64,000 bases of DNA from an uncultured Candidatus Saccharibacteria bacterium (GCA_964459225.1 CAYWKB010000001.1:354777-418776), one strand, 5' to 3'. Positions 818 through 60,392 are shown, counted from the stretch's first letter. Notes: generated by a model from the sequence alone, not told the origin. Numbers and translations: made by a program.

Positions 818-1720
818 ATGGCAAATCGACACTTATCAAGATCAGTAGTACTACAATCACTCTTTGAGTGGGATTTCCGAGGTTGTCATGATGAAATAAT
901 TAAAGAAATAATCACCCGAGTTTCCAAGGAGTTCGCTTCTGGTATGGGTGATTTTTCTTTTATTGAAAACTTGGCAAATAATGTACTTTCAAAAAAGGCA
1001 GATCTAGATAAAATAATTGAAAAGGCAGCGCCAGATTGGCCACTTGATAAAATCTCAGTAATAGACAGAAATATTTTGCGAATTGGACTATATGAATTAC
1101 TTTTTTCAGATAGAAATGAAGTACCCGCAAAAGTGGCAATAAATGAAGCAATTGAACTTGCAAAGAGTTTTGGTGGTGAAAATAGTGGTAAGTTTATAAA
1201 CGGAGTTTTGGGTTCTGTATACAAGGAATTAGGTGAACCAGGCAAAGACAGTGCTCCAAAAAAGAAAAATAAAATAGCAGATATACCATACGAAGAAATG
1301 CCCATTCAAAACTTAGGCGGAGCAGTGGTATATGCAAATGACGGAGATGAAATATACCTAGCATTCGTGCACGATATATTTGGACATTGGACTTTATCAA
1401 AAGGTAAAATACCAGAAGGAGATGTAAAGGTTGGAACAATAGCAAAAGTAAAGGAAGAAATGGGATTGGATGTAGAAATCACTGATGATTTAGGTAAAAA
1501 TGAATATATAGCAAGTGATCCAGAAAAAGGAAAGCTCAGAAAGCAAGTACATTATTTCCTTGCAAAGACAAATTTTACTGATATAAAGCTCGCAGAAAAG
1601 CCAGGACTAGATGATGCAAAATGGTTCAAACTTGCAGACATACTTGAGCTAAATTTTTATGATGATATAGTACCTATTGTAACAAAAGCCATAACATTAT
1701 TGAGTAGTAAAACAAAATGA
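818..1720 (+). CDS. nusB: Transcription antitermination factor NusB (aa ~1-140) fused to a divergent NUDIX-fold domain (aa ~160-300)
   Basis: The N-terminal half matches NusB closely (LRIGLYELLF...VPAKVAINEAIELAKSFGGENSGKFINGVLG). The C-terminal half shows a Nudix-fold pattern (GGAVVYANDGDEIYLAFV...GHWTLSKGKIPEGD...KVKEEMGL) with an incomplete Nudix box. It is one uninterrupted 300-aa ORF. Confidence 0.7.
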   Translation: MANRHLSRSVVLQSLFEWDFRGCHDEIIKEIITRVSKEFASGMGDFSFIENLANNVLSKKADLDKIIEKAAPDWPLDKISVIDRNILRIGLYELLFSDRNEVPAKVAINEAIELAKSFGGENSGKFINGVLGSVYKELGEPGKDSAPKKKNKIADIPYEEMPIQNLGGAVVYANDGDEIYLAFVHDIFGHWTLSKGKIPEGDVKVGTIAKVKEEMGLDVEITDDLGKNEYIASDPEKGKLRKQVHYFLAKTNFTDIKLAEKPGLDDAKWFKLADILELNFYDDIVPIVTKAITLLSSKTK

Positions 1721-14341: not shown

Positions 14342-16102
14342 ATGAATGAAGAAAGGATTACATATTTTGGTCAAACCGATTCAAGAAATAAAAGGGTGAG
14401 TTTTGGTATTAAGGCCAAGGATCGTACTAAACATGTTTATGTAATCGGAAAGACAGGAATGGGAAAGTCTACCTTGCTTGAAAACATGGCTGTTCAGGAT
14501 ATTAAAAATGGTGAAGGTCTCGCTTTTATTGATCCCCACGGCAAGACTGCAGAGTTGCTACTTGAATACGTTCCTGAACATAGAATGAAGGATGTTGTTT
14601 ACTTTGCTCCATTCGATGTTGATTATCCTATTTCATTTAATGTTTTAGAAAGTGTTGATCCAGACAAAAGACATCTAGTTGTTTCTGGTCTAATGAGTAC
14701 TTTCAAAAAGATTTGGCAAGATGCATGGTCTGCACGTATGGAATATATTCTAACAAATACCTTGCTTGCTTTGCTTGAATATCCTGATGCAACACTTCTT
14801 GGAGTAAATCGTATGTTGTCTGATAAGGAATTTAGAAATAAGGTTGTTGCATGTGTTACAGACTCTGCTGTAAAGGCATTTTGGACACAAGAATTTGCAA
14901 ATTATACCGAAAGAATGGCGGCTGAAGCAGTTCCCGCAATTCAAAACAAAATCGGTCAATTTACCGCTAATGCACTTATTCGAAATATGATAGGTCAGCC
15001 AAAATCATCATTTGATATTAGAAAAATGATGGATGAGGGTAAGATTTTCATAATTAACCTTTCAAAAGGAAGAATAGGCGAGTCAAATGCAAATCTTTTG
15101 GGTGGAATGCTTATTACAAAAATATATTTGGCTGCACTTTCACGCGCAGATATTCCTGATAGGGTTTTAAAGAAATTACCGAATTTTTATCTCTTTGTGG
15201 ACGAGTTCCAGTCTTTTGCAAATGAAAGTTTTGCGGATATTTTGTCTGAGGCTAGAAAATACAAATTAAATCTAACAATTGCACATCAATATATTGAGCA
15301 AATGGAAGATGAGGTTAGAGCAGCTGTTTTTGGTAACGTTGGTACCATGATTGTCTTTCGCGTTGGTGCATATGATGCAGAAATATTAGAAAAAGAATTC
15401 GCACCTCAATTTACCGCAGAGGACATTGTTAATCTTGGAATTTATCAAATATATTTAAAATTAATGATTGATGGTATTAGTTCTGCACCTTTTTCTGCTA
15501 CTACCTTGCCTCCAATAGATAAACCAGAAAGTTCAAGTATGGAAAAGGTTATACAGTCATCACGTGAACAATTTGCAAATAAACGTTCCGATGTTGAAAA
15601 AGCAATCGATGATTGGATGGTGCCTATTAAGCCGACTCCAAAAGCTATGGCCCCAAAATCAAATAATATAATTCAATCAAATCAGATACCTTCAAATCCA
15701 ATACCTAAACCTAATCCAATTTCACCCACACCTACACCTACACCCACTCCAGCTCCAACACCTGCGCCTGTATCTATACCTGTGCAAAAACCAGTTATCC
15801 CTACTCCAATGCCAATTCAAAAAGTTGAGCAACCTTTTAAAAAAGCTTTTTCAGAAATTAAAATTGAAGAGAAGAAGCCCGAAAGTGTAAAACCAATATC
15901 ATTAAATTCATTAGTCAAAAATAAAAAAGAAGCAGACCCTAGAAAGATAGATGATTTAAAGAGTGCATTAGCATCAGTTCTTGCAAATAAAAAAGTTGAA
16001 GAAAAACCAAAGACAAAGGAAGAAAAAAATAATACCGAAAAAAAGACAATTCCAAATGAAATTCCAGAGGATGTACTAAAAAACGTACTTAAGGTAGAGT
16101 AA
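14342..16102 (+). CDS. VirD4/TraD/TraG-like (type IV coupling protein / DUF87-type) P-loop ATPase with a low-complexity Pro/Thr/Lys-rich C-terminal tail
   Basis: Walker A VIGKTGMGKSTL, Walker B YLFVDEFQSF, and ARKYKLNLTIAHQY, typical of TrwB/TraD-type NTPases. Residues ~430-586 are PT- and K/E-rich. Confidence 0.55.
   Translation: MNEERITYFGQTDSRNKRVSFGIKAKDRTKHVYVIGKTGMGKSTLLENMAVQDIKNGEGLAFIDPHGKTAELLLEYVPEHRMKDVVYFAPFDVDYPISFNVLESVDPDKRHLVVSGLMSTFKKIWQDAWSARMEYILTNTLLALLEYPDATLLGVNRMLSDKEFRNKVVACVTDSAVKAFWTQEFANYTERMAAEAVPAIQNKIGQFTANALIRNMIGQPKSSFDIRKMMDEGKIFIINLSKGRIGESNANLLGGMLITKIYLAALSRADIPDRVLKKLPNFYLFVDEFQSFANESFADILSEARKYKLNLTIAHQYIEQMEDEVRAAVFGNVGTMIVFRVGAYDAEILEKEFAPQFTAEDIVNLGIYQIYLKLMIDGISSAPFSATTLPPIDKPESSSMEKVIQSSREQFANKRSDVEKAIDDWMVPIKPTPKAMAPKSNNIIQSNQIPSNPIPKPNPISPTPTPTPTPAPTPAPVSIPVQKPVIPTPMPIQKVEQPFKKAFSEIKIEEKKPESVKPISLNSLVKNKKEADPRKIDDLKSALASVLANKKVEEKPKTKEEKNNTEKKTIPNEIPEDVLKNVLKVE
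15724..15770 (+). repeat. Short CCnACn microsatellite-like repeat encoding (PT)n/(PA)n
   Basis: CACACCTACACCTACACCCACTCCAGCTCCAACACCTGCGCCT, locally GC-rich. Confidence 0.5.
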
Positions 16103-48642: not shown

Positions 48643-50898
48643 ATGAATAACAATATAAATACAGTTTTGAAGTATGCGGTTATTATTGGGCTTTTTATTA
48701 TACCTTTTACTCCGCTTTATATAGCTAACACTTTATTTTTCCCGTTCATTGCTGGTAAGGCATTTATGTTTAGGGTAATAGTTGAAATTGTATTTGCATT
48801 GTGGCTTATACTTTTGCTAAGAGAAAGGGGTACAAGTACAGCTGGTACAGACAGGAGTGTTGCTCCAAGAATAAATTCACTCACAGTTACTGTTACTGTA
48901 TTTACTCTAGTTATCTTTATCGCCGATATGTTTGGCTTAAACTTCATAAGAAGTATTTGGTCAAATTATGAAAGAATGGAAGGATTTATAACTATATCTC
49001 ATTTATGGTTGTATTATATTGTTGCTACTAGTATGTTTGGTGAAGGTGAATACGCAAAGAAAAACTGGAAAGTATTTTTGAATATCATATTGACTGCAGG
49101 ATTCTTTACAGCAATTTATGGATTATTCCAATATTTTGGTAAGGCAGATATTCATCAAGGTTCATCAAGAATAGACGCGTCTCTCGGTAACTCTGCATAC
49201 ATGGCGGTTTATATGCTTATAAATGCATTTATCGCACTATACCTGGCAATAGTATCATTTAAAAATAAGTCTCTGATAGCATTATATTCAGTACTATTTT
49301 CTTTGTATTCATTTTTACTATTTCAAACAGCAACAAGAGGTACAATACTAGGTTGGATTGCCTCAGTTTTGGTAATTTGTGCAATTTATTCAGTATTTGG
49401 AAGAAAGTCTAAGGGTCAATCAAATGTATCAAGAGTTATCTCAGGTTCAGTAATAGTAATTGTAATCATCTCAGGTATTGCATTCTACTTTAATAGAGAT
49501 TCACAATTTATCAAAAATAATTCAGTTCTAGCACGTTTGGCAACTATATCTATTTCAGATACAAAGACTCAAGCAAGAGGATTTATTTGGCCAATGGCAG
49601 TAAAGGGAGTTATGGAAAGCCCAAAGACAATAATATTGGGTGTAGGACAAGAAAATTTCAATTATATTTTCAACAAAAATTACAATCCACTAATGTGGAA
49701 GCATGAACAATGGTTTGATAGAGCACACAGTGTGTTTTTGGACTGGTTAGTTGCTGGAGGTGTATTGGGACTTATTGCATATTTGTCACTCTATGTATTA
49801 TCACTTGTATACATATTAAAAAGCGATTTAACTATTGGACAAAAGTCAGTTTTGATAGGACTTATTACGGGATATGGAATACATAATATATTCGTATTCG
49901 ATAATCAAACAAGTTATATCATGTTCTTTTCTCTTCTTGCTTATGTACATTCGTTTAGAAAAGGCAAAATCAATAAAGTATTCCTAAATAAAGATAAAGG
50001 TTTGACTGAAGATTATATTACCGTTAGAGATTATGTCTGTATTCCAGTTGTTGTAATAGTATTTATTGCTGCGCAGTATTTTATAAATGTACGCGCTTTA
50101 CAGGCTAACAAAGCAATAGTTAACAATCTAATATTATGTAATGGGGGTGGCAAAAATCTTACAGTTAAAAATCTTGAAATAGTATTTAAAATGGATCAAA
50201 CTGTTGCAAATCAAGAGGCTAGAGAGCAACTTATGTCATGTATATCTGGAATAATTAATGGAGGAGATTCACAACAAAGAAAGGCAGAATTTTATGTATT
50301 AGCAAATAAAGAAATAGAAAAGCAAATAGCAACAACACCAAATGATGCAAGAATATATATTATTGCTGGAAGCTTCTATAATACAATAGGGGATTATAAT
50401 AAAGCTCTACCATTACTCGAAAAAGCACGTCAATTATCTCCAAGTAAACAAACAATAGCTTTTGAATTAGCGTTAAATTATATAAATACTGGAAAAAGAA
50501 AAGAAGCAGTTGAATTAACAAAGAGTACTTATGAATTAGCTAAGGAAAATGATTCAGCTAAGGTTGCATATATAATTTCACTTATATCAAATAATCAAGA
50601 ATCAATTGCAAAAACAGAGTTTAAAGATGATAAAGAGATATTTAAAGATCCAAGAGTTATAAATGCATATCTTGCAAATAAACAATACGCTAAAGCGATT
50701 GATTTATATAAAGAAATATTAAAGTCTAATCCGGATGATCAAAATGTATATTCTGCTCTAGCCTCAGCATATCTTATGGATAAACAAGATTACATGGCCA
50801 TTCAAACTCTTAAAGACGCTGCGGTTAAGTTTCCAATTATAAAGACTCAAATAGATTCAATAATTAAACAAATTCAAGAAGGAAAATTTAATCGATAA
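48643..50898 (+). CDS. O-antigen ligase/polymerase-family (Wzy_C) polytopic membrane protein with C-terminal TPR repeats; candidate O-oligosaccharyltransferase
   Basis: ~12 TM helices with Wzy_C-like topology. The C-terminal ~250 aa form soluble TPR-like repeats (ALPLLEKARQLSP..., AYLANKQYAKAIDLYKEILKSNPDD...). Confidence 0.55.
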   Translation: MNNNINTVLKYAVIIGLFIIPFTPLYIANTLFFPFIAGKAFMFRVIVEIVFALWLILLLRERGTSTAGTDRSVAPRINSLTVTVTVFTLVIFIADMFGLNFIRSIWSNYERMEGFITISHLWLYYIVATSMFGEGEYAKKNWKVFLNIILTAGFFTAIYGLFQYFGKADIHQGSSRIDASLGNSAYMAVYMLINAFIALYLAIVSFKNKSLIALYSVLFSLYSFLLFQTATRGTILGWIASVLVICAIYSVFGRKSKGQSNVSRVISGSVIVIVIISGIAFYFNRDSQFIKNNSVLARLATISISDTKTQARGFIWPMAVKGVMESPKTIILGVGQENFNYIFNKNYNPLMWKHEQWFDRAHSVFLDWLVAGGVLGLIAYLSLYVLSLVYILKSDLTIGQKSVLIGLITGYGIHNIFVFDNQTSYIMFFSLLAYVHSFRKGKINKVFLNKDKGLTEDYITVRDYVCIPVVVIVFIAAQYFINVRALQANKAIVNNLILCNGGGKNLTVKNLEIVFKMDQTVANQEAREQLMSCISGIINGGDSQQRKAEFYVLANKEIEKQIATTPNDARIYIIAGSFYNTIGDYNKALPLLEKARQLSPSKQTIAFELALNYINTGKRKEAVELTKSTYELAKENDSAKVAYIISLISNNQESIAKTEFKDDKEIFKDPRVINAYLANKQYAKAIDLYKEILKSNPDDQNVYSALASAYLMDKQDYMAIQTLKDAAVKFPIIKTQIDSIIKQIQEGKFNR

Positions 50899-51553
50899 TA
50901 TATCCTCTACCGGGAATATTCCTTAAAATATCTCTCTTTCCGTTTGTATTGATCTTTTTCCTGAGATTTAATATGTGAGCTTCAACGGTATTTGAAAAAG
51001 GATCACTTTCTGAATTCCAAACATATTCCATTATCATACCTCTAGATAATATGATTCCTCTGTTTCTGACTAGGTATTCTAGGAGATTGTATGTTTTGCG
51101 GGTTAAATATATTTGTCTGCCATCTCTCCTAACTGTCTTTTTAATTGTATCAATTACCATATCATCGACCCTTAATATACTTTCCTCCATTGTTTTTGGT
51201 CTACGACCTACTGCTCTTATTCGTGCTTTCAGCTCTTCGAGTGAAAAAGGTTTTGTTATATAGTCATCTGCACCGATATTTAATGCATTTACCTTTTTTC
51301 TTAATTCATTATGAATTGAAAGGAAAATAATTGGCGTAGAATCACCGGTTTTACGTATTTCGTCACATATTTCCATACCATTTTTGCTTGGTAGCGAATT
51401 ATCCATGATAATAACATCATAATTATTTGTCTTTGCCATAAACAATCCAGCCTGACCATCGTGCGATACCTCTACATTAAATGAGTCTTCAGTAAGCCCC
51501 AATCTAATATTATACGAAACTTCCTTATCATCCTCTATTAATAATATTTTCAT
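50888..51553 (-). CDS. OmpR/PhoB-type response regulator (orphan; no kinase in window)
   Basis: Receiver MKILLIEDD...DVIIMDNSLP and a winged-helix C-terminus ...LTRKTYNLLEYLVRNRGIILSRGMIMEYVW. Confidence 0.85.
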   Translation of the reverse strand: MKILLIEDDKEVSYNIRLGLTEDSFNVEVSHDGQAGLFMAKTNNYDVIIMDNSLPSKNGMEICDEIRKTGDSTPIIFLSIHNELRKKVNALNIGADDYITKPFSLEELKARIRAVGRRPKTMEESILRVDDMVIDTIKKTVRRDGRQIYLTRKTYNLLEYLVRNRGIILSRGMIMEYVWNSESDPFSNTVEAHILNLRKKINTNGKRDILRNIPGRGYIID

Positions 51554-51664
51554 ACACTGATTATATGTGATTCAAACATATTAATCATTTATTTTTGTGG
51601 AAATCATGCATAATAATTTTATCAGGATTTTATCATAAATATGGTATAATGATTTATCAATAAA

Positions 51665-52951
51665 ATGGCAGATATAAATCCAAGCTTTTTCGCAAGTATT
51701 CTTATACATTTGGAATCAATATTGAGGCATGGTGGTTATACTGTGCTATTTATGGTCTCATTACTTGAAGGATTCCCAATTATCGGGCAATTTATACCCG
51801 GACATACTATAGTTATATTTTCCGGATTCCTTACCAAAATTTCAGTGTTAAATATTAAAATAGTTTTACCTCTTGTTGTCTTGGGTGCAATGATAGGGGA
51901 TATAATAGGATATTTAATAGGTAAAAAGTTTGGATTTGTATTTTTAAATAAATATGGAAAGTATTTTTTTATTACTGAAGCACATATTGAAAAAGCAAAA
52001 AAATTAATTAAAGATCATGTGGGTAAGACTATTATTTTGGGTAGATTTAGTCCTATCACAAGACAATTAACTCCATATATAGTAGGTGCAAGTGATATAC
52101 ATATTAAATCATTTTGGATATATGACTTACTTGGCGTTTTGATATGGTCCGCCACCTCTATAGGTATCGGATATATGTTTGGGGCAAGTTATCATATTGT
52201 TGCAGGAATATTCGGTAAATTTATTGTAGTCGCAATTATTATATCTATTATATTAATTTGGGCATATAAGTTTATAAATAAAGAATTCCACCTTTTTGCA
52301 AAGTATGAATTAATCACATTAGGTTTAAATATTTCAAGCCTCTATATCTTTTTTAAGACCCTGCAAGATGCAACAAGCAATAGTTCTTATATGTCAGAAT
52401 TAGATATATGGTTTAATGTGTTTATCAATGAAAGAACGACGACATGGGGATTGTATTTTATGAATTTGGTAGATAATTTCTTCAATATTAATACATTAAT
52501 TATCTGTACATTAATATGCACAACATATCTTATTTTTAAGAAAAAATGGAGATACACATTTATTACAATAATTTCAATCGGTCTCGGACCGATATTAAAC
52601 GGGTTTTTAAAGGAATTAATAATGAGAGATAGACCAATAAACAGTGTAATACTTGAAACAGGCTATAGTTTCCCAAGTGGGCATGCTATGGCTGTGACTG
52701 TGTTTTTTACTCTATTAATTTACTTTTTCATCGGCAATGTTAAAAACATACTATATAGAGAGTCCCTGATACTACTTTCTGTATTAATTATTTTGACTAT
52801 TTCATTTAGTAGATTATATCTTGGAGTTCATTGGCTAACCGATATTATTGCAGGTATTTCATTTGGATTGTTTTGGACAACATTTACTATACTATCAGTT
52901 AGATATATAGGAATGATTGTTTCTAGGATATTTAAAAGCAATAAAAACTAG
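51665..52951 (+). CDS. DedA-family membrane protein fused to a PAP2 (type 2 phosphatidic acid phosphatase / undecaprenyl-diphosphatase-like) domain
   Basis: DedA signature region (LEGFPIIGQFIPGHTIVIFSGFL...ILGRFSPITRQLTPYIVGAS). The C-terminus has PAP2 motifs KELIMRDRP (Kx6RP), PSGH and SRLYLGVHWLTD (SRx5Hx3D). Confidence 0.75.
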   Translation: MADINPSFFASILIHLESILRHGGYTVLFMVSLLEGFPIIGQFIPGHTIVIFSGFLTKISVLNIKIVLPLVVLGAMIGDIIGYLIGKKFGFVFLNKYGKYFFITEAHIEKAKKLIKDHVGKTIILGRFSPITRQLTPYIVGASDIHIKSFWIYDLLGVLIWSATSIGIGYMFGASYHIVAGIFGKFIVVAIIISIILIWAYKFINKEFHLFAKYELITLGLNISSLYIFFKTLQDATSNSSYMSELDIWFNVFINERTTTWGLYFMNLVDNFFNINTLIICTLICTTYLIFKKKWRYTFITIISIGLGPILNGFLKELIMRDRPINSVILETGYSFPSGHAMAVTVFFTLLIYFFIGNVKNILYRESLILLSVLIILTISFSRLYLGVHWLTDIIAGISFGLFWTTFTILSVRYIGMIVSRIFKSNKN

Positions 52952-58502: not shown

Positions 58503-60392
58503 TTATATTGTGAGTAATACTGGAATAACTATTGGGCGCTTTGCTGTTTTTTGTAATAGGAATTTACTAATATTATCTGAAATATTACTCTTAATAAAAT
58601 CTACATTGATAGGATTCATTCCTCTTGTTGAATCTTCAATTGTATTTTTAATTATTATTCTTGCATTGTGTAATAGTTCTTGCGATTCTCTTAGATAAAC
58701 GAAACCACGAGATATAATATCTGGAGATTTCTTAAGCTTTCCTGTCTGTGAATTAATTATTGCAAAAACAATAAATATTCCGTCTTGTGCAAGCATTTGT
58801 CTATCTCTTATAACTACATCCTGTATATCTCCAACTGAAAATCCATCAACCATAACTATACCTGATGGTGCTTTTTCTTTTATTTTTACTATTTTTTCTC
58901 CTCCATTTTGTATTTCAACGATTGATCCATTGTCTGGAATTATTATCTGATCTTCGGTTAAACCATTTGCTTCGTGGGCAATATCTCCGTGAACTCTAAG
59001 CATATAATGATATCCGTGAACAGGCATAAAGAACTTAGGCTTAATCTTTTTATGTATCCAAGCAGTTTCATCTCTATTTGCGTGACCAGATGAGTGAACA
59101 TCGGCAATACGATAGTGAATAATATTTGCACCTTGTCTTGAAAGATTATCTTTTAGCTTTTGTACCGCTCTTTCATTTCCAGGAACAATAGATGATGAAA
59201 GTAATATTGTATCTCTCTTATTAATCTTTATGTATTTATGTGTCTTATTAGACATACGCATCATTGCGGCAAATTCGTCACCCTGCGCTCCCGTTGCAAG
59301 CACAACTATTTTATCTGGTGCGTAATTATCGATTTCCTCAACTGAAATTATTGTGTCTTTTTTAGGTTTCAATAGACCAAGATTTCTACAAATTTCTATA
59401 TTTGTTTTCATGCTTCTACCCTCAACTACGACTTTTTTGCCGTATTTTTCAGAGTAATCAATTATTTTAAGCATTCTTTCAAGTAGGGAAGCAAAAGTTG
59501 CAATAATCAATCTACCTTTTGTGTTCTTGATTATTTCTTCAATATTTTTATGAACTGTTTTTTCTGGAATTGAAAAGCCTGGGTTTTCAACATTTGTTGA
59601 ATCAGCCATAAGTAGTAAAACCTTTTCATTTTTAAATACTCTATCGTATTCTGCTTCTTCATCATCTGTTGGTATGCCGTTTTCATGATCAAGCTTAAGG
59701 TCTCCTGTATGTACTATTGAGCCATGCGGAGTTTGTATAACTATTCCCATAGCATCAGGTATAGTATGTGTAACTGCAAAAAACTTTACCTTTAAATTTC
59801 CAAGTGTGATTGATTCATCCTTTTCAACAATTTTAATATCAAGAGGCGGAACATGTGAAAATTCTTCCTGGCGCTTTTTGATCATAACGGCAGTTAGCAT
59901 TCTAGTATAAAGTGGGGGATTGCCTATTCTTGGCATAACATAAGGTATTCCTCCTATGTGATCAAGGTGACCGTGAGTTATTATAACTGCTCTTATTTTA
60001 TCTTTTCTTTCTTCAAGGTATTTTGTATTTGGAAGTATATAGTCTATTCCTGGTGTATTTTCATCTTTAAACTGAAAACCAATATCAATAACGATTATAT
60101 CGTTACCGTATTCAATCATAGTCATGTTTTTACCGATTTCCTCCACACCTCCTAATGGAATAATTCTTATTGAATTTTCCTGTAGAGCTGGAACAGTATC
60201 CTCAACTTTTTTATGTACCTGTGTAGCCTCTGGTGGTCGTGACGGTCTCATTCCATGTGATCTACCTCCCCCAGTTCTCCTCATATCTCTTTGAGTATGT
60301 CTTTGTGCTGGCCTTCCTGTTGTGGGTGTGGCCGTCGTAACTGTCCCTTGTGCTCTTTCAATTGCTCCTTCTAATTTTTTTTCTGTGTTCAT
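58503..60392 (-). CDS. rnj: Ribonuclease J (metallo-beta-lactamase/beta-CASP) with Arg/Thr/Gly-rich N-terminal extension
   Basis: VIITHGHLDHIGG and beta-CASP motifs. The N-terminal ~60 aa (RPAQRHTQRDMRRTGGGRSHGMRPSRPP) are encoded by a locally GC-rich patch. Confidence 0.85.
   Translation of the reverse strand: MNTEKKLEGAIERAQGTVTTATPTTGRPAQRHTQRDMRRTGGGRSHGMRPSRPPEATQVHKKVEDTVPALQENSIRIIPLGGVEEIGKNMTMIEYGNDIIVIDIGFQFKDENTPGIDYILPNTKYLEERKDKIRAVIITHGHLDHIGGIPYVMPRIGNPPLYTRMLTAVMIKKRQEEFSHVPPLDIKIVEKDESITLGNLKVKFFAVTHTIPDAMGIVIQTPHGSIVHTGDLKLDHENGIPTDDEEAEYDRVFKNEKVLLLMADSTNVENPGFSIPEKTVHKNIEEIIKNTKGRLIIATFASLLERMLKIIDYSEKYGKKVVVEGRSMKTNIEICRNLGLLKPKKDTIISVEEIDNYAPDKIVVLATGAQGDEFAAMMRMSNKTHKYIKINKRDTILLSSSIVPGNERAVQKLKDNLSRQGANIIHYRIADVHSSGHANRDETAWIHKKIKPKFFMPVHGYHYMLRVHGDIAHEANGLTEDQIIIPDNGSIVEIQNGGEKIVKIKEKAPSGIVMVDGFSVGDIQDVVIRDRQMLAQDGIFIVFAIINSQTGKLKKSPDIISRGFVYLRESQELLHNARIIIKNTIEDSTRGMNPINVDFIKSNISDNISKFLLQKTAKRPIVIPVLLTI

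What the first reader, a model, noticed from the sequence alone, without database searches (positions are those of the whole stretch)
51665..52951. DedA-PAP2 fusion: possible undecaprenyl-phosphate flippase fused to a lipid pyrophosphatase
The N-terminal two thirds is a DedA/SNARE-associated family membrane domain. The C-terminal third carries all three PAP2 phosphatase motifs: Kx6RP (KELIMRDRP), PSGH, and SRx5Hx3D (SRLYLGVHWLTD). DedA-family proteins were recently shown to recycle undecaprenyl phosphate across the membrane. PAP2 enzymes (PgpB, BcrC, YbjG) dephosphorylate C55-PP on the outer face. A single polypeptide combining both would couple carrier-lipid dephosphorylation to re-import. 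This fusion independently supports the DedA flippase model, and it sits next to a very large lipid-linked glycan locus.
Basis: partly seen in the sequence, partly recalled or inferred. Interest (0 to 1): 0.65.

Follow-up and report, generated by a model that had tools for sequence, protein, structure and literature searches.

The report
Known DedA–PAP2 lipid-carrier recycling fusion
This gene really does join a DedA-type membrane transporter to a PAP2 lipid phosphatase whose active site is predicted to face outward, but this fusion is common, already has a standard database name, and was already used in the 2022-23 papers as evidence that DedA proteins recycle the cell-wall lipid carrier.

Summary
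Window 51665-52951 (+) encodes a 428-aa protein. Both Pfam domains score above their curated thresholds: VTT/DedA (aa 44-170) and PAP2 (aa 300-414). The proportions need correcting: the PAP2 part is a complete 6-TM enzyme (aa ~213-428), so it is half of the protein, not a third. Charge bias, homology to B. subtilis PgpB and published YqjA topology all place the PAP2 site outside the cytoplasm.

The idea is not new. NCBI names homologs 'bifunctional DedA family/phosphatase PAP2 family protein'. Roney & Rudner, Sit et al. and Todor et al. all described the fusion and made the same argument. The family is large: 223 clusters at 50% identity reach E<=1e-30, spread over Patescibacteria, Actinomycetota and Proteobacteria.

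There is one caution. The only fusion tested genetically, P. aeruginosa PA4011, was judged 'likely not involved' in C55-P flip-back.

Two modest additions come from this work:
- In Patescibacteria the gene is usually paired divergently with an OmpR-type response regulator. Conserved 11-bp-spaced direct repeats sit at the -35 position of its promoter.
- The residue equivalent to YqjA Asp51 is His. This is a trait of the DedA subclade, not of the fusion.

Verdict: real, already known, low interest.

The parts
51665..52951 (+). Complete ORF, 428 aa, for a bifunctional DedA family / PAP2 phosphatase protein
   Evidence: A 100% identical protein (P0001) occurs on 6 public contigs with the same neighbours.
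51665..52288 (+). DedA half (aa 1-208): N-terminal amphipathic helix, TM1, hairpin 1, TM2, K/R-rich cytoplasmic loop, hairpin 2, TM3, TM4. The Pfam VTT_dom hit covers aa 44-170 (nt 51794-52174).
   Evidence: 25% identity to YqjA over 152 aa, E=9e-13
51767..51805 (+). Hairpin 1 (aa 35-47). E35 corresponds to YqjA E39 / UptA E32 and is invariant. H47 occupies the position of YqjA D51 (34 H, 5 Q, 2 N among 41 homologs).
52043..52063 (+). Hairpin 2 arginine pair (GRFSPITR). R127 and R133 correspond to YqjA R130/R136 and UptA R112/R118, the proposed phosphate-binding residues. Invariant W161 corresponds to UptA W146.
52301..52948 (+). PAP2 half (aa 213-428): a complete 6-TM lipid phosphate phosphatase fold. 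The Pfam PAP2 hit covers aa 300-414 (nt 52562-52906).
   Evidence: 5jki, E=8e-16; TM-score 0.81, rmsd 2.7 A
52610..52636 (+). PAP2 motif C1, KELIMRDRP (Kx6RP), in a predicted extracytoplasmic loop
52673..52684 (+). PAP2 motif C2, PSGH
52808..52843 (+). PAP2 motif C3, SRLYLGVHWLTD (SRx5Hx3D, with the nucleophile His389)
51616..51635 (+). Two direct repeats, ATTTTATCA (51616-51624 and 51627-51635), with 11-bp period, at the -35 position of the fusion gene's promoter. Candidate binding site for an OmpR/PhoB-type regulator.
   Evidence: the perfect site is unique in the 64 kb; conserved in RR-linked relatives, about 100-fold enriched, absent where no RR is adjacent
51642..51650 (+). Conserved extended -10 element TGGTATAAT, 14 nt upstream of the ATG
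   Evidence: TGGTATAAT is identical in L012, L084, L085 and L086; L006 has TGTTATGAT and L009 has TGGTATGCT
50888..51553 (-). Divergently transcribed OmpR/PhoB-family response regulator (Response_reg + Trans_reg_C), the most conserved neighbour of the fusion gene

Best explanation
The gene encodes a member of the already described family of bifunctional DedA-PAP2 membrane proteins. The C-terminal half is a complete 6-TM PAP2 lipid phosphate phosphatase, and its catalytic motifs are predicted to sit at the outer face of the cytoplasmic membrane. The N-terminal half is a COG0586-type DedA transporter domain that keeps the Glu/Arg/Arg/Trp network which binds C55-P in B. subtilis UptA. The most likely job is recycling of the polyprenyl carrier lipid. 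Undecaprenyl-PP released outside (by peptidoglycan synthesis and by Wzy_C-type enzymes) would be dephosphorylated by the PAP2 half. The resulting Und-P, together with Und-P released directly by PMT-type GT-C enzymes, would be returned to the inner leaflet by the DedA half. In this Patescibacteria lineage the gene is probably switched on by the divergently encoded OmpR/PhoB-type response regulator, acting through 11-bp-spaced direct repeats at the -35 position. What is shown here: the domain architecture, conservation of the catalytic and binding residues, the 6-TM PAP2 fold prediction, charge-bias topology, and conservation of the regulator and the repeats. What is inferred: the substrate (C55-PP / C55-P), transport activity, any kinetic coupling between the halves, and regulator binding.
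For: Both Pfam domains score above gathering thresholds. Sub-threshold NCBIfam similarity goes to DedA PRK10847, UptA, SepP, PgpB and the YbjG type. All PAP2 catalytic residues, plus E35, R127, R133 and W161, are invariant or nearly so in 41 homologs, and these map onto YqjA E39/R130/R136 and UptA E32/R112/R118/W146. The AF2 model has pLDDT 90.2 and pTM 0.79, and its PAP2 half matches 5jki with TM-score 0.81. For topology, K+R density is 0.18 in predicted inside loops against 0.06 in outside loops over 41 sequences. YqjA SCAM places the DedA C-terminus in the cytoplasm, and PAP2 active sites are known to face outward. A cytoplasm-requiring GT2 domain is fused after the last PAP2 helix in locus L032. 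Pathway context also fits: a Wzy_C-TPR protein, an ABC exporter and PMT-family GTs lie nearby, and in relative L086 a GT2+PMT gene starts 5 nt after the fusion gene. Published gene-neighbourhood and fusion arguments point the same way. For regulation.
Against: No biochemical data exist for any member of this clade. The only DedA-PAP2 fusion examined genetically, PA4011 (about 25% identical in related Pseudomonas orthologs), failed to complement the C55-P flippase mutant and did not add to its defects. The position of YqjA Asp51, which Todor et al. regard as a conserved proton-binding residue of COG0586, is His/Gln/Asn here. The closest solved PAP2 relative is a phosphatidylglycerophosphate phosphatase, not a dedicated C55-PP phosphatase. 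NCBIfam equivalog cut-offs for UptA, SepP, PgpB and YbjG are all missed by a wide margin. The repeat motif was derived from the same loci on which its enrichment was measured, so that test is partly circular.
Confidence: 0.6

Rival explanations
1. The protein remodels membrane lipids rather than recycling the carrier lipid. The PAP2 half would dephosphorylate phosphatidylglycerophosphate, phosphatidic acid or another lipid phosphate. The DedA half would scramble or translocate glycerophospholipids, as eukaryotic VMP1/TMEM41B do. This could matter in Patescibacteria, which are thought to depend on host-derived lipids.
For: The best solved-structure match is the PGP phosphatase bsPgpB/YodM. The authors studying PA4011 suggest 'phosphoregulation or membrane lipid remodeling' after it failed C55-P-related tests. 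UptA itself also binds anionic phospholipids. The Asp51-equivalent acid is missing.
Against: The C55-P-binding residues of UptA are all conserved. The DedA half resembles COG0586-type proteins, the subfamily linked to UndP. Neighbouring genes in the window and in relatives are glycan-assembly enzymes that use polyprenyl-P, not phospholipid genes. Many PAP2 enzymes, E. coli PgpB included, act on both PGP and C55-PP (8bm3 description), so the structural match does not discriminate between the two.
Confidence: 0.22
2. Both halves act on the carrier lipid but are not mechanistically coupled. The fusion would only ensure co-expression, stoichiometry or co-localisation, or the DedA half would serve mainly as a dimerising membrane scaffold for the phosphatase.
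For: Standalone DedA relatives with 36-45% identity to the N-terminal half, and apparent standalone PAP2 relatives, exist. In other genomes the two genes are merely adjacent. UptA and YqjA dimerise.
Against: The DedA transport-site residues are under strict conservation in the fused proteins, which argues against a pure scaffold. The AF2 pTM of 0.79 suggests a defined inter-domain arrangement. These tools cannot tell kinetic channeling from co-localisation.
Confidence: 0.15

Closest known systems
Bifunctional DedA family / phosphatase PAP2 family proteins (NCBI product name; the fusions of Roney & Rudner 2022/23 Fig. 3A/S11, Sit et al. 2022/23 and Todor et al. 2023)
   Same: The domain order is the same (DedA at the N-terminus, PAP2 at the C-terminus) and so is the size (about 420-440 aa). 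Homologs at 42-55% identity carry exactly this name. The proposed role is also the same: sequential steps of UndPP to UndP and then flip-back.
   Different: Nothing differs in architecture. This Patescibacteria clade has His/Gln/Asn at the YqjA-Asp51 position and is usually linked to an OmpR-type regulator. I did not find either point in the papers I read.
P. aeruginosa PA4011 (437 aa, DedA + PAP2)
   Same: It has the same two-domain architecture. Orthologs in Pseudomonas and Stutzerimonas were recovered as distant relatives (22-27% identity) with all catalytic residues conserved and a non-acidic residue (Thr) at the Asp51 position.
   Different: The sequences are very divergent. PA4011 sits in a Gram-negative organism that has several other DedAs and a dedicated flippase, PA4029. 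It did not complement the PA4029 deletion. Whether a genome-reduced Patescibacteria organism has other flippases is unknown.
B. subtilis UptA (YngC) / E. coli YqjA and YghB (COG0586 DedA)
   Same: It shares the VTT/DedA fold with two hairpins, and E35, R127, R133 and W161 correspond to UptA E32, R112, R118 and W146.
   Different: It is fused to PAP2. The Asp51 equivalent is His. It scores far below the UptA equivalog cut-off (57.6 against 250 bits). An invariant Asp79 in TM2 has no counterpart in YqjA, which has Cys there.
B. subtilis PgpB/YodM (PDB 5jki), E. coli PgpB, BcrC/YbjG-type PAP2 phosphatases
   Same: It has the same 6-TM PAP2 fold, the same C1-C3 motifs and the same predicted outward-facing active site.
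   Different: It is preceded by a DedA domain. Substrate preference is unknown, and equivalog thresholds are not reached.

Membership tests
DedA / VTT-domain family (PF09335), COG0586-type | Significant match to the family profile | tested here: met
   PF09335 scores 65.9 bits against gathering 33.9. The best NCBIfam similarity is to DedA PRK10847 and the UptA models. BLASTP to YqjA gives E=9e-13.
DedA / VTT-domain family (PF09335), COG0586-type | Two helix-break-helix re-entrant hairpins flanked by TM helices | tested here: met
   AF2 secondary structure shows broken helices at aa 36-58 and 126-146, each with a conserved Pro/Gly, between long helices. This is a prediction, not an experiment.
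DedA / VTT-domain family (PF09335), COG0586-type | Conserved charged residues: YqjA/YghB E39, D51, R130, R136 | tested here: inconclusive
   E35, R127 and R133 are conserved. The D51 position is H47 (34 H, 5 Q, 2 N; never acidic). The same non-acidic state is found in the closest standalone DedAs.
UptA (undecaprenyl phosphate transporter) equivalog | Score above the NCBIfam equivalog cut-off | tested here: not met
   NF052604 scores 57.6 bits against 250, and NF052605 scores 50.7 against 300.
UptA (undecaprenyl phosphate transporter) equivalog | C55-P binding and translocation activity | not testable with these tools
   Only residue conservation could be checked (E35, R127, R133, W161 against UptA E32, R112, R118, W146).
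PAP2 membrane lipid phosphate phosphatases (PF01569) | Profile match plus motifs C1 Kx6RP, C2 PSGH and C3 SRx5Hx3D | tested here: met
   PF01569 scores 63.8 bits against gathering 27.2. The motifs lie at aa 316-324, 337-340 and 382-393 and are invariant in homologs.
PAP2 membrane lipid phosphate phosphatases (PF01569) | Six-TM fold as in PgpB | tested here: met
   Foldseek against 5jki gives TM-score 0.81 (target-normalised), rmsd 2.7 A and 193 columns.
PAP2 membrane lipid phosphate phosphatases (PF01569) | Active site on the extracytoplasmic face | tested here: met
   Prediction only. Positive-inside bias is 0.18 against 0.06 K+R per residue. The DedA C-terminus is cytoplasmic by YqjA SCAM. 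PAP2 orientation is taken from the literature. A C-terminal GT2 fusion occurs in L032.
Undecaprenyl-diphosphatase equivalogs (SepP, YbjG type, PgpB) | Score above the equivalog cut-off, or demonstrated C55-PP hydrolysis | tested here: not met
   SepP scores 37.6 against 250, PgpB 31 against 261, and PRK11837 29.1 against 229 bits. Activity cannot be tested here.
Bifunctional DedA-PAP2 fusion class | Both domains in one ORF, DedA N-terminal; homology along the full length to proteins so named | tested here: met
   It is a single 428-aa ORF. The top 120 homologs all carry both Pfam domains, and several are named 'bifunctional DedA family/phosphatase PAP2 family protein'. Single-ORF fusions were verified in Pseudomonas and Nocardioidaceae loci.
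OmpR/PhoB-type activated promoter (regulatory context) | Adjacent winged-helix response regulator, plus direct repeats with about 11-bp period overlapping the -35 position upstream of a -10 box | tested here: met
   The repeats and the extended -10 are conserved across loci. Actual binding cannot be tested here.

The most novel reading that the evidence does not exclude
In genome-reduced Patescibacteria this single polypeptide could be the main or only machine for recycling the lipid carrier, induced by a dedicated two-component envelope-stress circuit. Its DedA half belongs to a subclade that lacks one of the two proposed proton-binding acids (Asp51 replaced by His/Gln/Asn). Flipping might therefore be driven by hand-over of freshly made Und-P from the attached PAP2 site rather than by the canonical proton-coupled cycle.
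Probability: 0.12. Interest if true: 0.55.

Novelty: already known. Interest (0 to 1): 0.22.

Why it matters
DedA-PAP2 fusions mattered as comparative-genomic support when DedA proteins were proposed as the long-sought undecaprenyl-phosphate flippases. That argument has been made and published. This instance adds another member from an uncultured, genome-reduced lineage. Its limited added value has three parts. First, it shows the fused form is widespread and strongly conserved in Patescibacteria. Second, it offers a compact single-protein candidate for structural or biochemical study of phosphatase-flippase coupling. Third, it points to a conserved regulator-promoter pair that may report carrier-lipid or envelope stress in these organisms.

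Tried and rejected
1. I tested whether loss of the Asp51-equivalent acid is specific to fused DedAs. It is not. Actinobacterial fusions keep Glu, and the closest standalone DedAs also carry H/M/N/S/A/Q/L.

2. I tested whether linkage to the glycan locus is a conserved feature. It is only partly conserved. Wzy_C-TPR is adjacent in 4 of 12 Patescibacteria loci, against 8 of 12 for the response regulator and 6 of 12 for iPGM.

3. I looked in the window for a cognate histidine kinase, or for a second DedA, PAP2 or UppP gene. None appeared among the ORFs of at least 120 aa that were scanned against Pfam; a few ORFs that overlap better-supported genes on the other strand or frame, and 58503-60392 (RNase J by the precomputed calls), were not scanned. 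Relative L084 does have a kinase next to the regulator.

4. A Foldseek search against AFDB50 was unavailable. No solved DedA structure turned up by sequence or fold search.

5. Rfam and tRNA scans of the window found nothing.

6. The consensus promoter scan did not call the + strand promoter. It was identified by cross-locus conservation instead.

7. Literature searches for 'Patescibacteria + DedA' and for the NCBI product name found nothing specific.

8. I could not read model coordinates, so the geometry between the PAP2 site and the DedA cavity was not analysed.

Full report
**Observation.** Window 51665..52951 (+) is a single ATG-initiated ORF of 428 aa.
- Pfam reports VTT_dom/DedA (PF09335) at aa 44-170 (E=6e-18, 65.9 bits, gathering 33.9) and PAP2 (PF01569) at aa 300-414 (E=1.8e-17, 63.8 bits, gathering 27.2).
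- NCBIfam gives only sub-threshold similarity. On the N-terminal half the matches are DedA PRK10847 and the two UptA models. On the C-terminal half they are SepP, PgpB and a YbjG-type undecaprenyl-diphosphatase.

**Anatomy.**
- An alignment of 41 homologs (38-65% identity) shows invariant K316, R323, P324, S338, H340, R383, H389 and D393 in the PAP2 half. In the DedA half E35, D79, R133 and W161 are invariant and R127 is nearly so.
- An AlphaFold2 model built on this alignment is confident (mean pLDDT 90.2, pTM 0.79).
- Foldseek against the PDB superposes the C-terminal part on essentially the whole 6-TM B. subtilis PgpB/YodM structure 5jki (193 of 201 columns, rmsd 2.7 A, target-normalised TM-score 0.81). 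LpxE and E. coli PgpB follow. phmmer agrees (5jki, E=8e-16).
- The PAP2 module therefore spans about aa 213-428, which is half of the protein and not a third. The DedA module is about aa 1-208.
- No solved DedA structure was found.
- BLASTP to E. coli YqjA maps its functionally essential residues as follows: E39 to E35, R130 to R127, R136 to R133, and D51 to H47.
- The UptA residues shown by native MS to support C55-P binding (E32, R112, R118, W146) correspond to E35, R127, R133 and W161. The Arg-to-Trp spacing is 28 residues in both proteins.

**Topology.**
- I used the AF2 helices and hydropathy. The chain reads: cytoplasmic N-terminus, TM1, hairpin 1, TM2, a K/R-rich loop (aa 85-125), hairpin 2, TM3, TM4, a short K-rich linker (aa 201-215), then six PAP2 helices.
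- Over 41 sequences the predicted inside loops carry 0.18 K+R per residue and the outside loops 0.06. Most of the outside positives are the catalytic K316, R321, R323 and R383.
- Published cysteine-accessibility data put the YqjA N-terminus, V99/L117 and the C-terminal G217 in the cytoplasm, and S52/V59 in the periplasm. The DedA module therefore ends inside.
- The PAP2 module then starts inside, as PgpB does, which places C1-C3 outside. This agrees with the accepted outward orientation of PAP2 active sites.
- An independent hint comes from a Marmoricola MAG, where a nucleotide-sugar-type GT2 domain is fused after the last PAP2 helix in one stop-free frame. That requires a cytoplasmic C-terminus.

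**Is it known?** Yes.
- The top 120 database homologs all carry both domains and are about 420-430 aa. Several are named by NCBI 'bifunctional DedA family/phosphatase PAP2 family protein' (Patescibacteria group, Ca. Taylorbacteria), and JGI names some 'undecaprenyl-diphosphatase'.
- Roney & Rudner reported dedA genes adjacent to or fused with pap2. [quoted passage not shown] - Todor et al. listed PAP2 fusions of COG0586 DedAs.
- A scan of the whole representative library gave 223 clusters (50% identity) at E<=1e-30. Most of the best 150 are full-length two-domain proteins of 410-440 aa.
- A scan of species-representative genomes found full-length fusions in Patescibacteria (38-56% identity), in Actinomycetota, and in Alpha-, Beta- and Gammaproteobacteria. 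The last group includes cultured Pseudomonas, Stutzerimonas, Marinobacter, Geminicoccus and Mesorhizobium. Single ORFs were verified in two of these loci.

**A caution for the functional reading.**
- The Pseudomonas representative PA4011 (437 aa, present in 235 of 236 other Pseudomonas genomes) has been tested genetically.
- Deleting it lowers the emergence of colistin resistance. However, it neither complements the C55-P flippase PA4029 nor aggravates loss of PA4029.
- The fusion is thus suggestive evidence for coupling, not proof of it.

**The Asp51 position.**
- Todor et al. treat Glu39 and Asp51 as the conserved proton-binding pair of COG0586 DedAs.
- Here the Asp51 position is His in 34 homologs, Gln in 5 and Asn in 2, and it is never acidic.
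- Across true fusions the residue varies by lineage. It is H/N/M in Patescibacteria and T/V/S/A in Proteobacteria (Thr in PA4011-like proteins), but Glu in Actinomycetota. E35, D79, R127, R133 and the PAP2 catalytic residues are kept throughout, apart from one proteobacterial locus with Lys at R133 and some actinobacterial loci that vary at the C1 positions K316 and R323.
- I tested whether loss of the acid goes with fusion, and it does not. The closest standalone DedAs (36-45% identical to the N-terminal half) carry H/M/N/S/A/Q/L there.
- It is therefore a subclade trait of unknown mechanistic meaning.

**Genomic context.**
- The window comes from a low-GC (about 30%) Patescibacteria-type genome.
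- From about 16.1 to 50.9 kb it encodes a large glycan-assembly locus. This contains at least ten GT4 enzymes, several GT2, a GT11, a GT47-like enzyme, a GtrA-GT4 fusion, a PMT_2 GT-C enzyme, many methyltransferases, two epimerases, a HepA/MsbA/PglK-like ABC exporter, a cytidylyltransferase and a 751-aa Wzy_C-TPR protein.
- A PMT-family mannosyltransferase lies 3 kb downstream.
- These enzymes would release Und-PP (Wzy_C type) and Und-P (PMT type) at the outer face, which fits a recycling role.
- The linkage is only partly conserved. Among 12 Patescibacteria loci, Wzy_C-TPR is adjacent in 4, iPGM lies convergently downstream in 6, and a divergently transcribed OmpR/PhoB-family response regulator lies immediately upstream in 8.
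- In relative L086 a GT2(Ppm1-like)+PMT gene begins 5 nt after the fusion gene.

**Regulation (new here, modest).**
- The 111-bp regulator-fusion intergenic region holds two ATTTTATCA repeats (51616-51624 and 51627-51635, 11-bp period). They sit 6 bp upstream of an extended -10 element, TGGTATAAT (51642-51650), which is 14 nt before the ATG.
- The same layout recurs in L007, L009, L012, L084, L085 and L086 despite otherwise diverged spacers: two to four TTTYATM repeats with 11-bp period, followed by TGGTATAAT or a near variant. L006 has the repeats further upstream.
- The perfect 18-mer is unique in the 64-kb window.
- A degenerate two-repeat pattern occurs 7 times in the 12 upstream regions and 6 times in the remaining about 200 kb. 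That is roughly 100-fold enrichment.
- Every one of those upstream occurrences is on the gene's strand. The pattern is found in 6 of 8 regulator-linked loci and in 0 of 4 loci without an adjacent regulator.
- The pattern was derived from these same loci, so the statistic is partly circular.
- This is the classic geometry of a PhoB/OmpR-type activator site replacing the -35 box.
- The regulator matches no specific NCBIfam equivalog, and no histidine kinase is encoded in the window. L084 has one next to the regulator.
- By analogy with sigma-M control of uptA in B. subtilis, I infer stress-responsive control of carrier recycling. This is an inference only.

**Verdict.**
- The feature is real and correctly described, apart from the domain proportions.
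- Its most likely function is outward-facing polyprenyl-pyrophosphate dephosphorylation joined to DedA-mediated return of the monophosphate (confidence about 0.6).
- The rivals are a role in phospholipid or other lipid-phosphate remodelling (about 0.22) and uncoupled or scaffold arrangements (about 0.15).
- The architecture and its interpretation are already in the literature and in routine annotation, so novelty is 'already known' and interest is low.
- The regulator-repeat pairing and the subclade-wide replacement of Asp51 are minor additions that could guide experiments.

Noticed in passing
window 51554-51664 (also L007, L009, L012, L084, L085, L086 upstream regions): Conserved 11-bp-spaced direct repeats (ATTTTATCA x2 at 51616-51635) sit at the -35 position, followed by the extended -10 element TGGTATAAT, in front of the DedA-PAP2 gene. 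The layout tracks with the presence of the divergent OmpR-type response regulator.
   Followed up: yes
window 51554-51575 (minus strand, upstream of the RR start at 51553): A TATAAT-like box lies only about 6-8 nt upstream of the response regulator's ATG, and there is no Shine-Dalgarno sequence. The same is seen in L006 and L086. This suggests a leaderless or near-leaderless mRNA. The fusion gene also has only about 14 nt between its -10 box and its ATG.
   Followed up: no
L019, L020, L021, L025, L026, L030, L035 (proteobacterial loci); e.g. L020 5893-7938: In many proteobacterial versions an LssY_C-like region (PF14067) follows the DedA-PAP2 part. It lies within one stop-free ORF of about 670-705 aa in L020, L021, L025, L026 and L030, and it was confirmed by Pfam only in L020. 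The function of this third domain is unknown.
   Followed up: partly
L032 5353-8250 (Marmoricola MAG); L086 8289-10388: In one actinobacterial MAG, DedA-PAP2 is joined in a single stop-free frame to a GT2 that resembles polyprenyl-phosphate sugar synthase. In a 60%-identical Patescibacteria relative, a GT2+PMT fusion gene starts 5 nt after the DedA-PAP2 gene. Both tie the family to polyprenyl-phosphate sugar metabolism.
   Followed up: partly
window ~16107-50898: This is a glycan locus of about 35 kb with an unusual mix: at least 10 GT4, a GT11 (fucosyltransferase-like), a GT47/exostosin-like enzyme, a GtrA-GT4 fusion, a GT2-methyltransferase fusion, two FkbM methyltransferases and a GMC oxidoreductase. 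No initiating phosphoglycosyltransferase (WecA/MraY or Bac_transf type) was detected among the ORFs scanned.
   Followed up: partly
window 818-1720: One 300-aa ORF combines NusB and NUDIX domains, which is an unusual pairing.
   Followed up: no
window 14342-16102: A protein resembling a type IV secretion coupling protein (TrwB/VirD4/HerA-like ATPase) lies directly at the upstream edge of the glycan locus.
   Followed up: no
P0266, P0268 (181-182 aa) from the representative library: These apparent standalone PAP2 proteins begin at the equivalent of residue ~243 of the fusion, so they lack the first PAP2 TM helix. They may be gene fissions, alternative starts or truncated gene calls.
   Followed up: no
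window 52948-52951 and 50888-50898: There are convergent 3'-end overlaps. The fusion gene and the iPGM gene share 4 nt, and the Wzy_C-TPR gene and the response regulator gene share 11 nt. The whole 64-kb window has no tRNA and no Rfam match.
   Followed up: no
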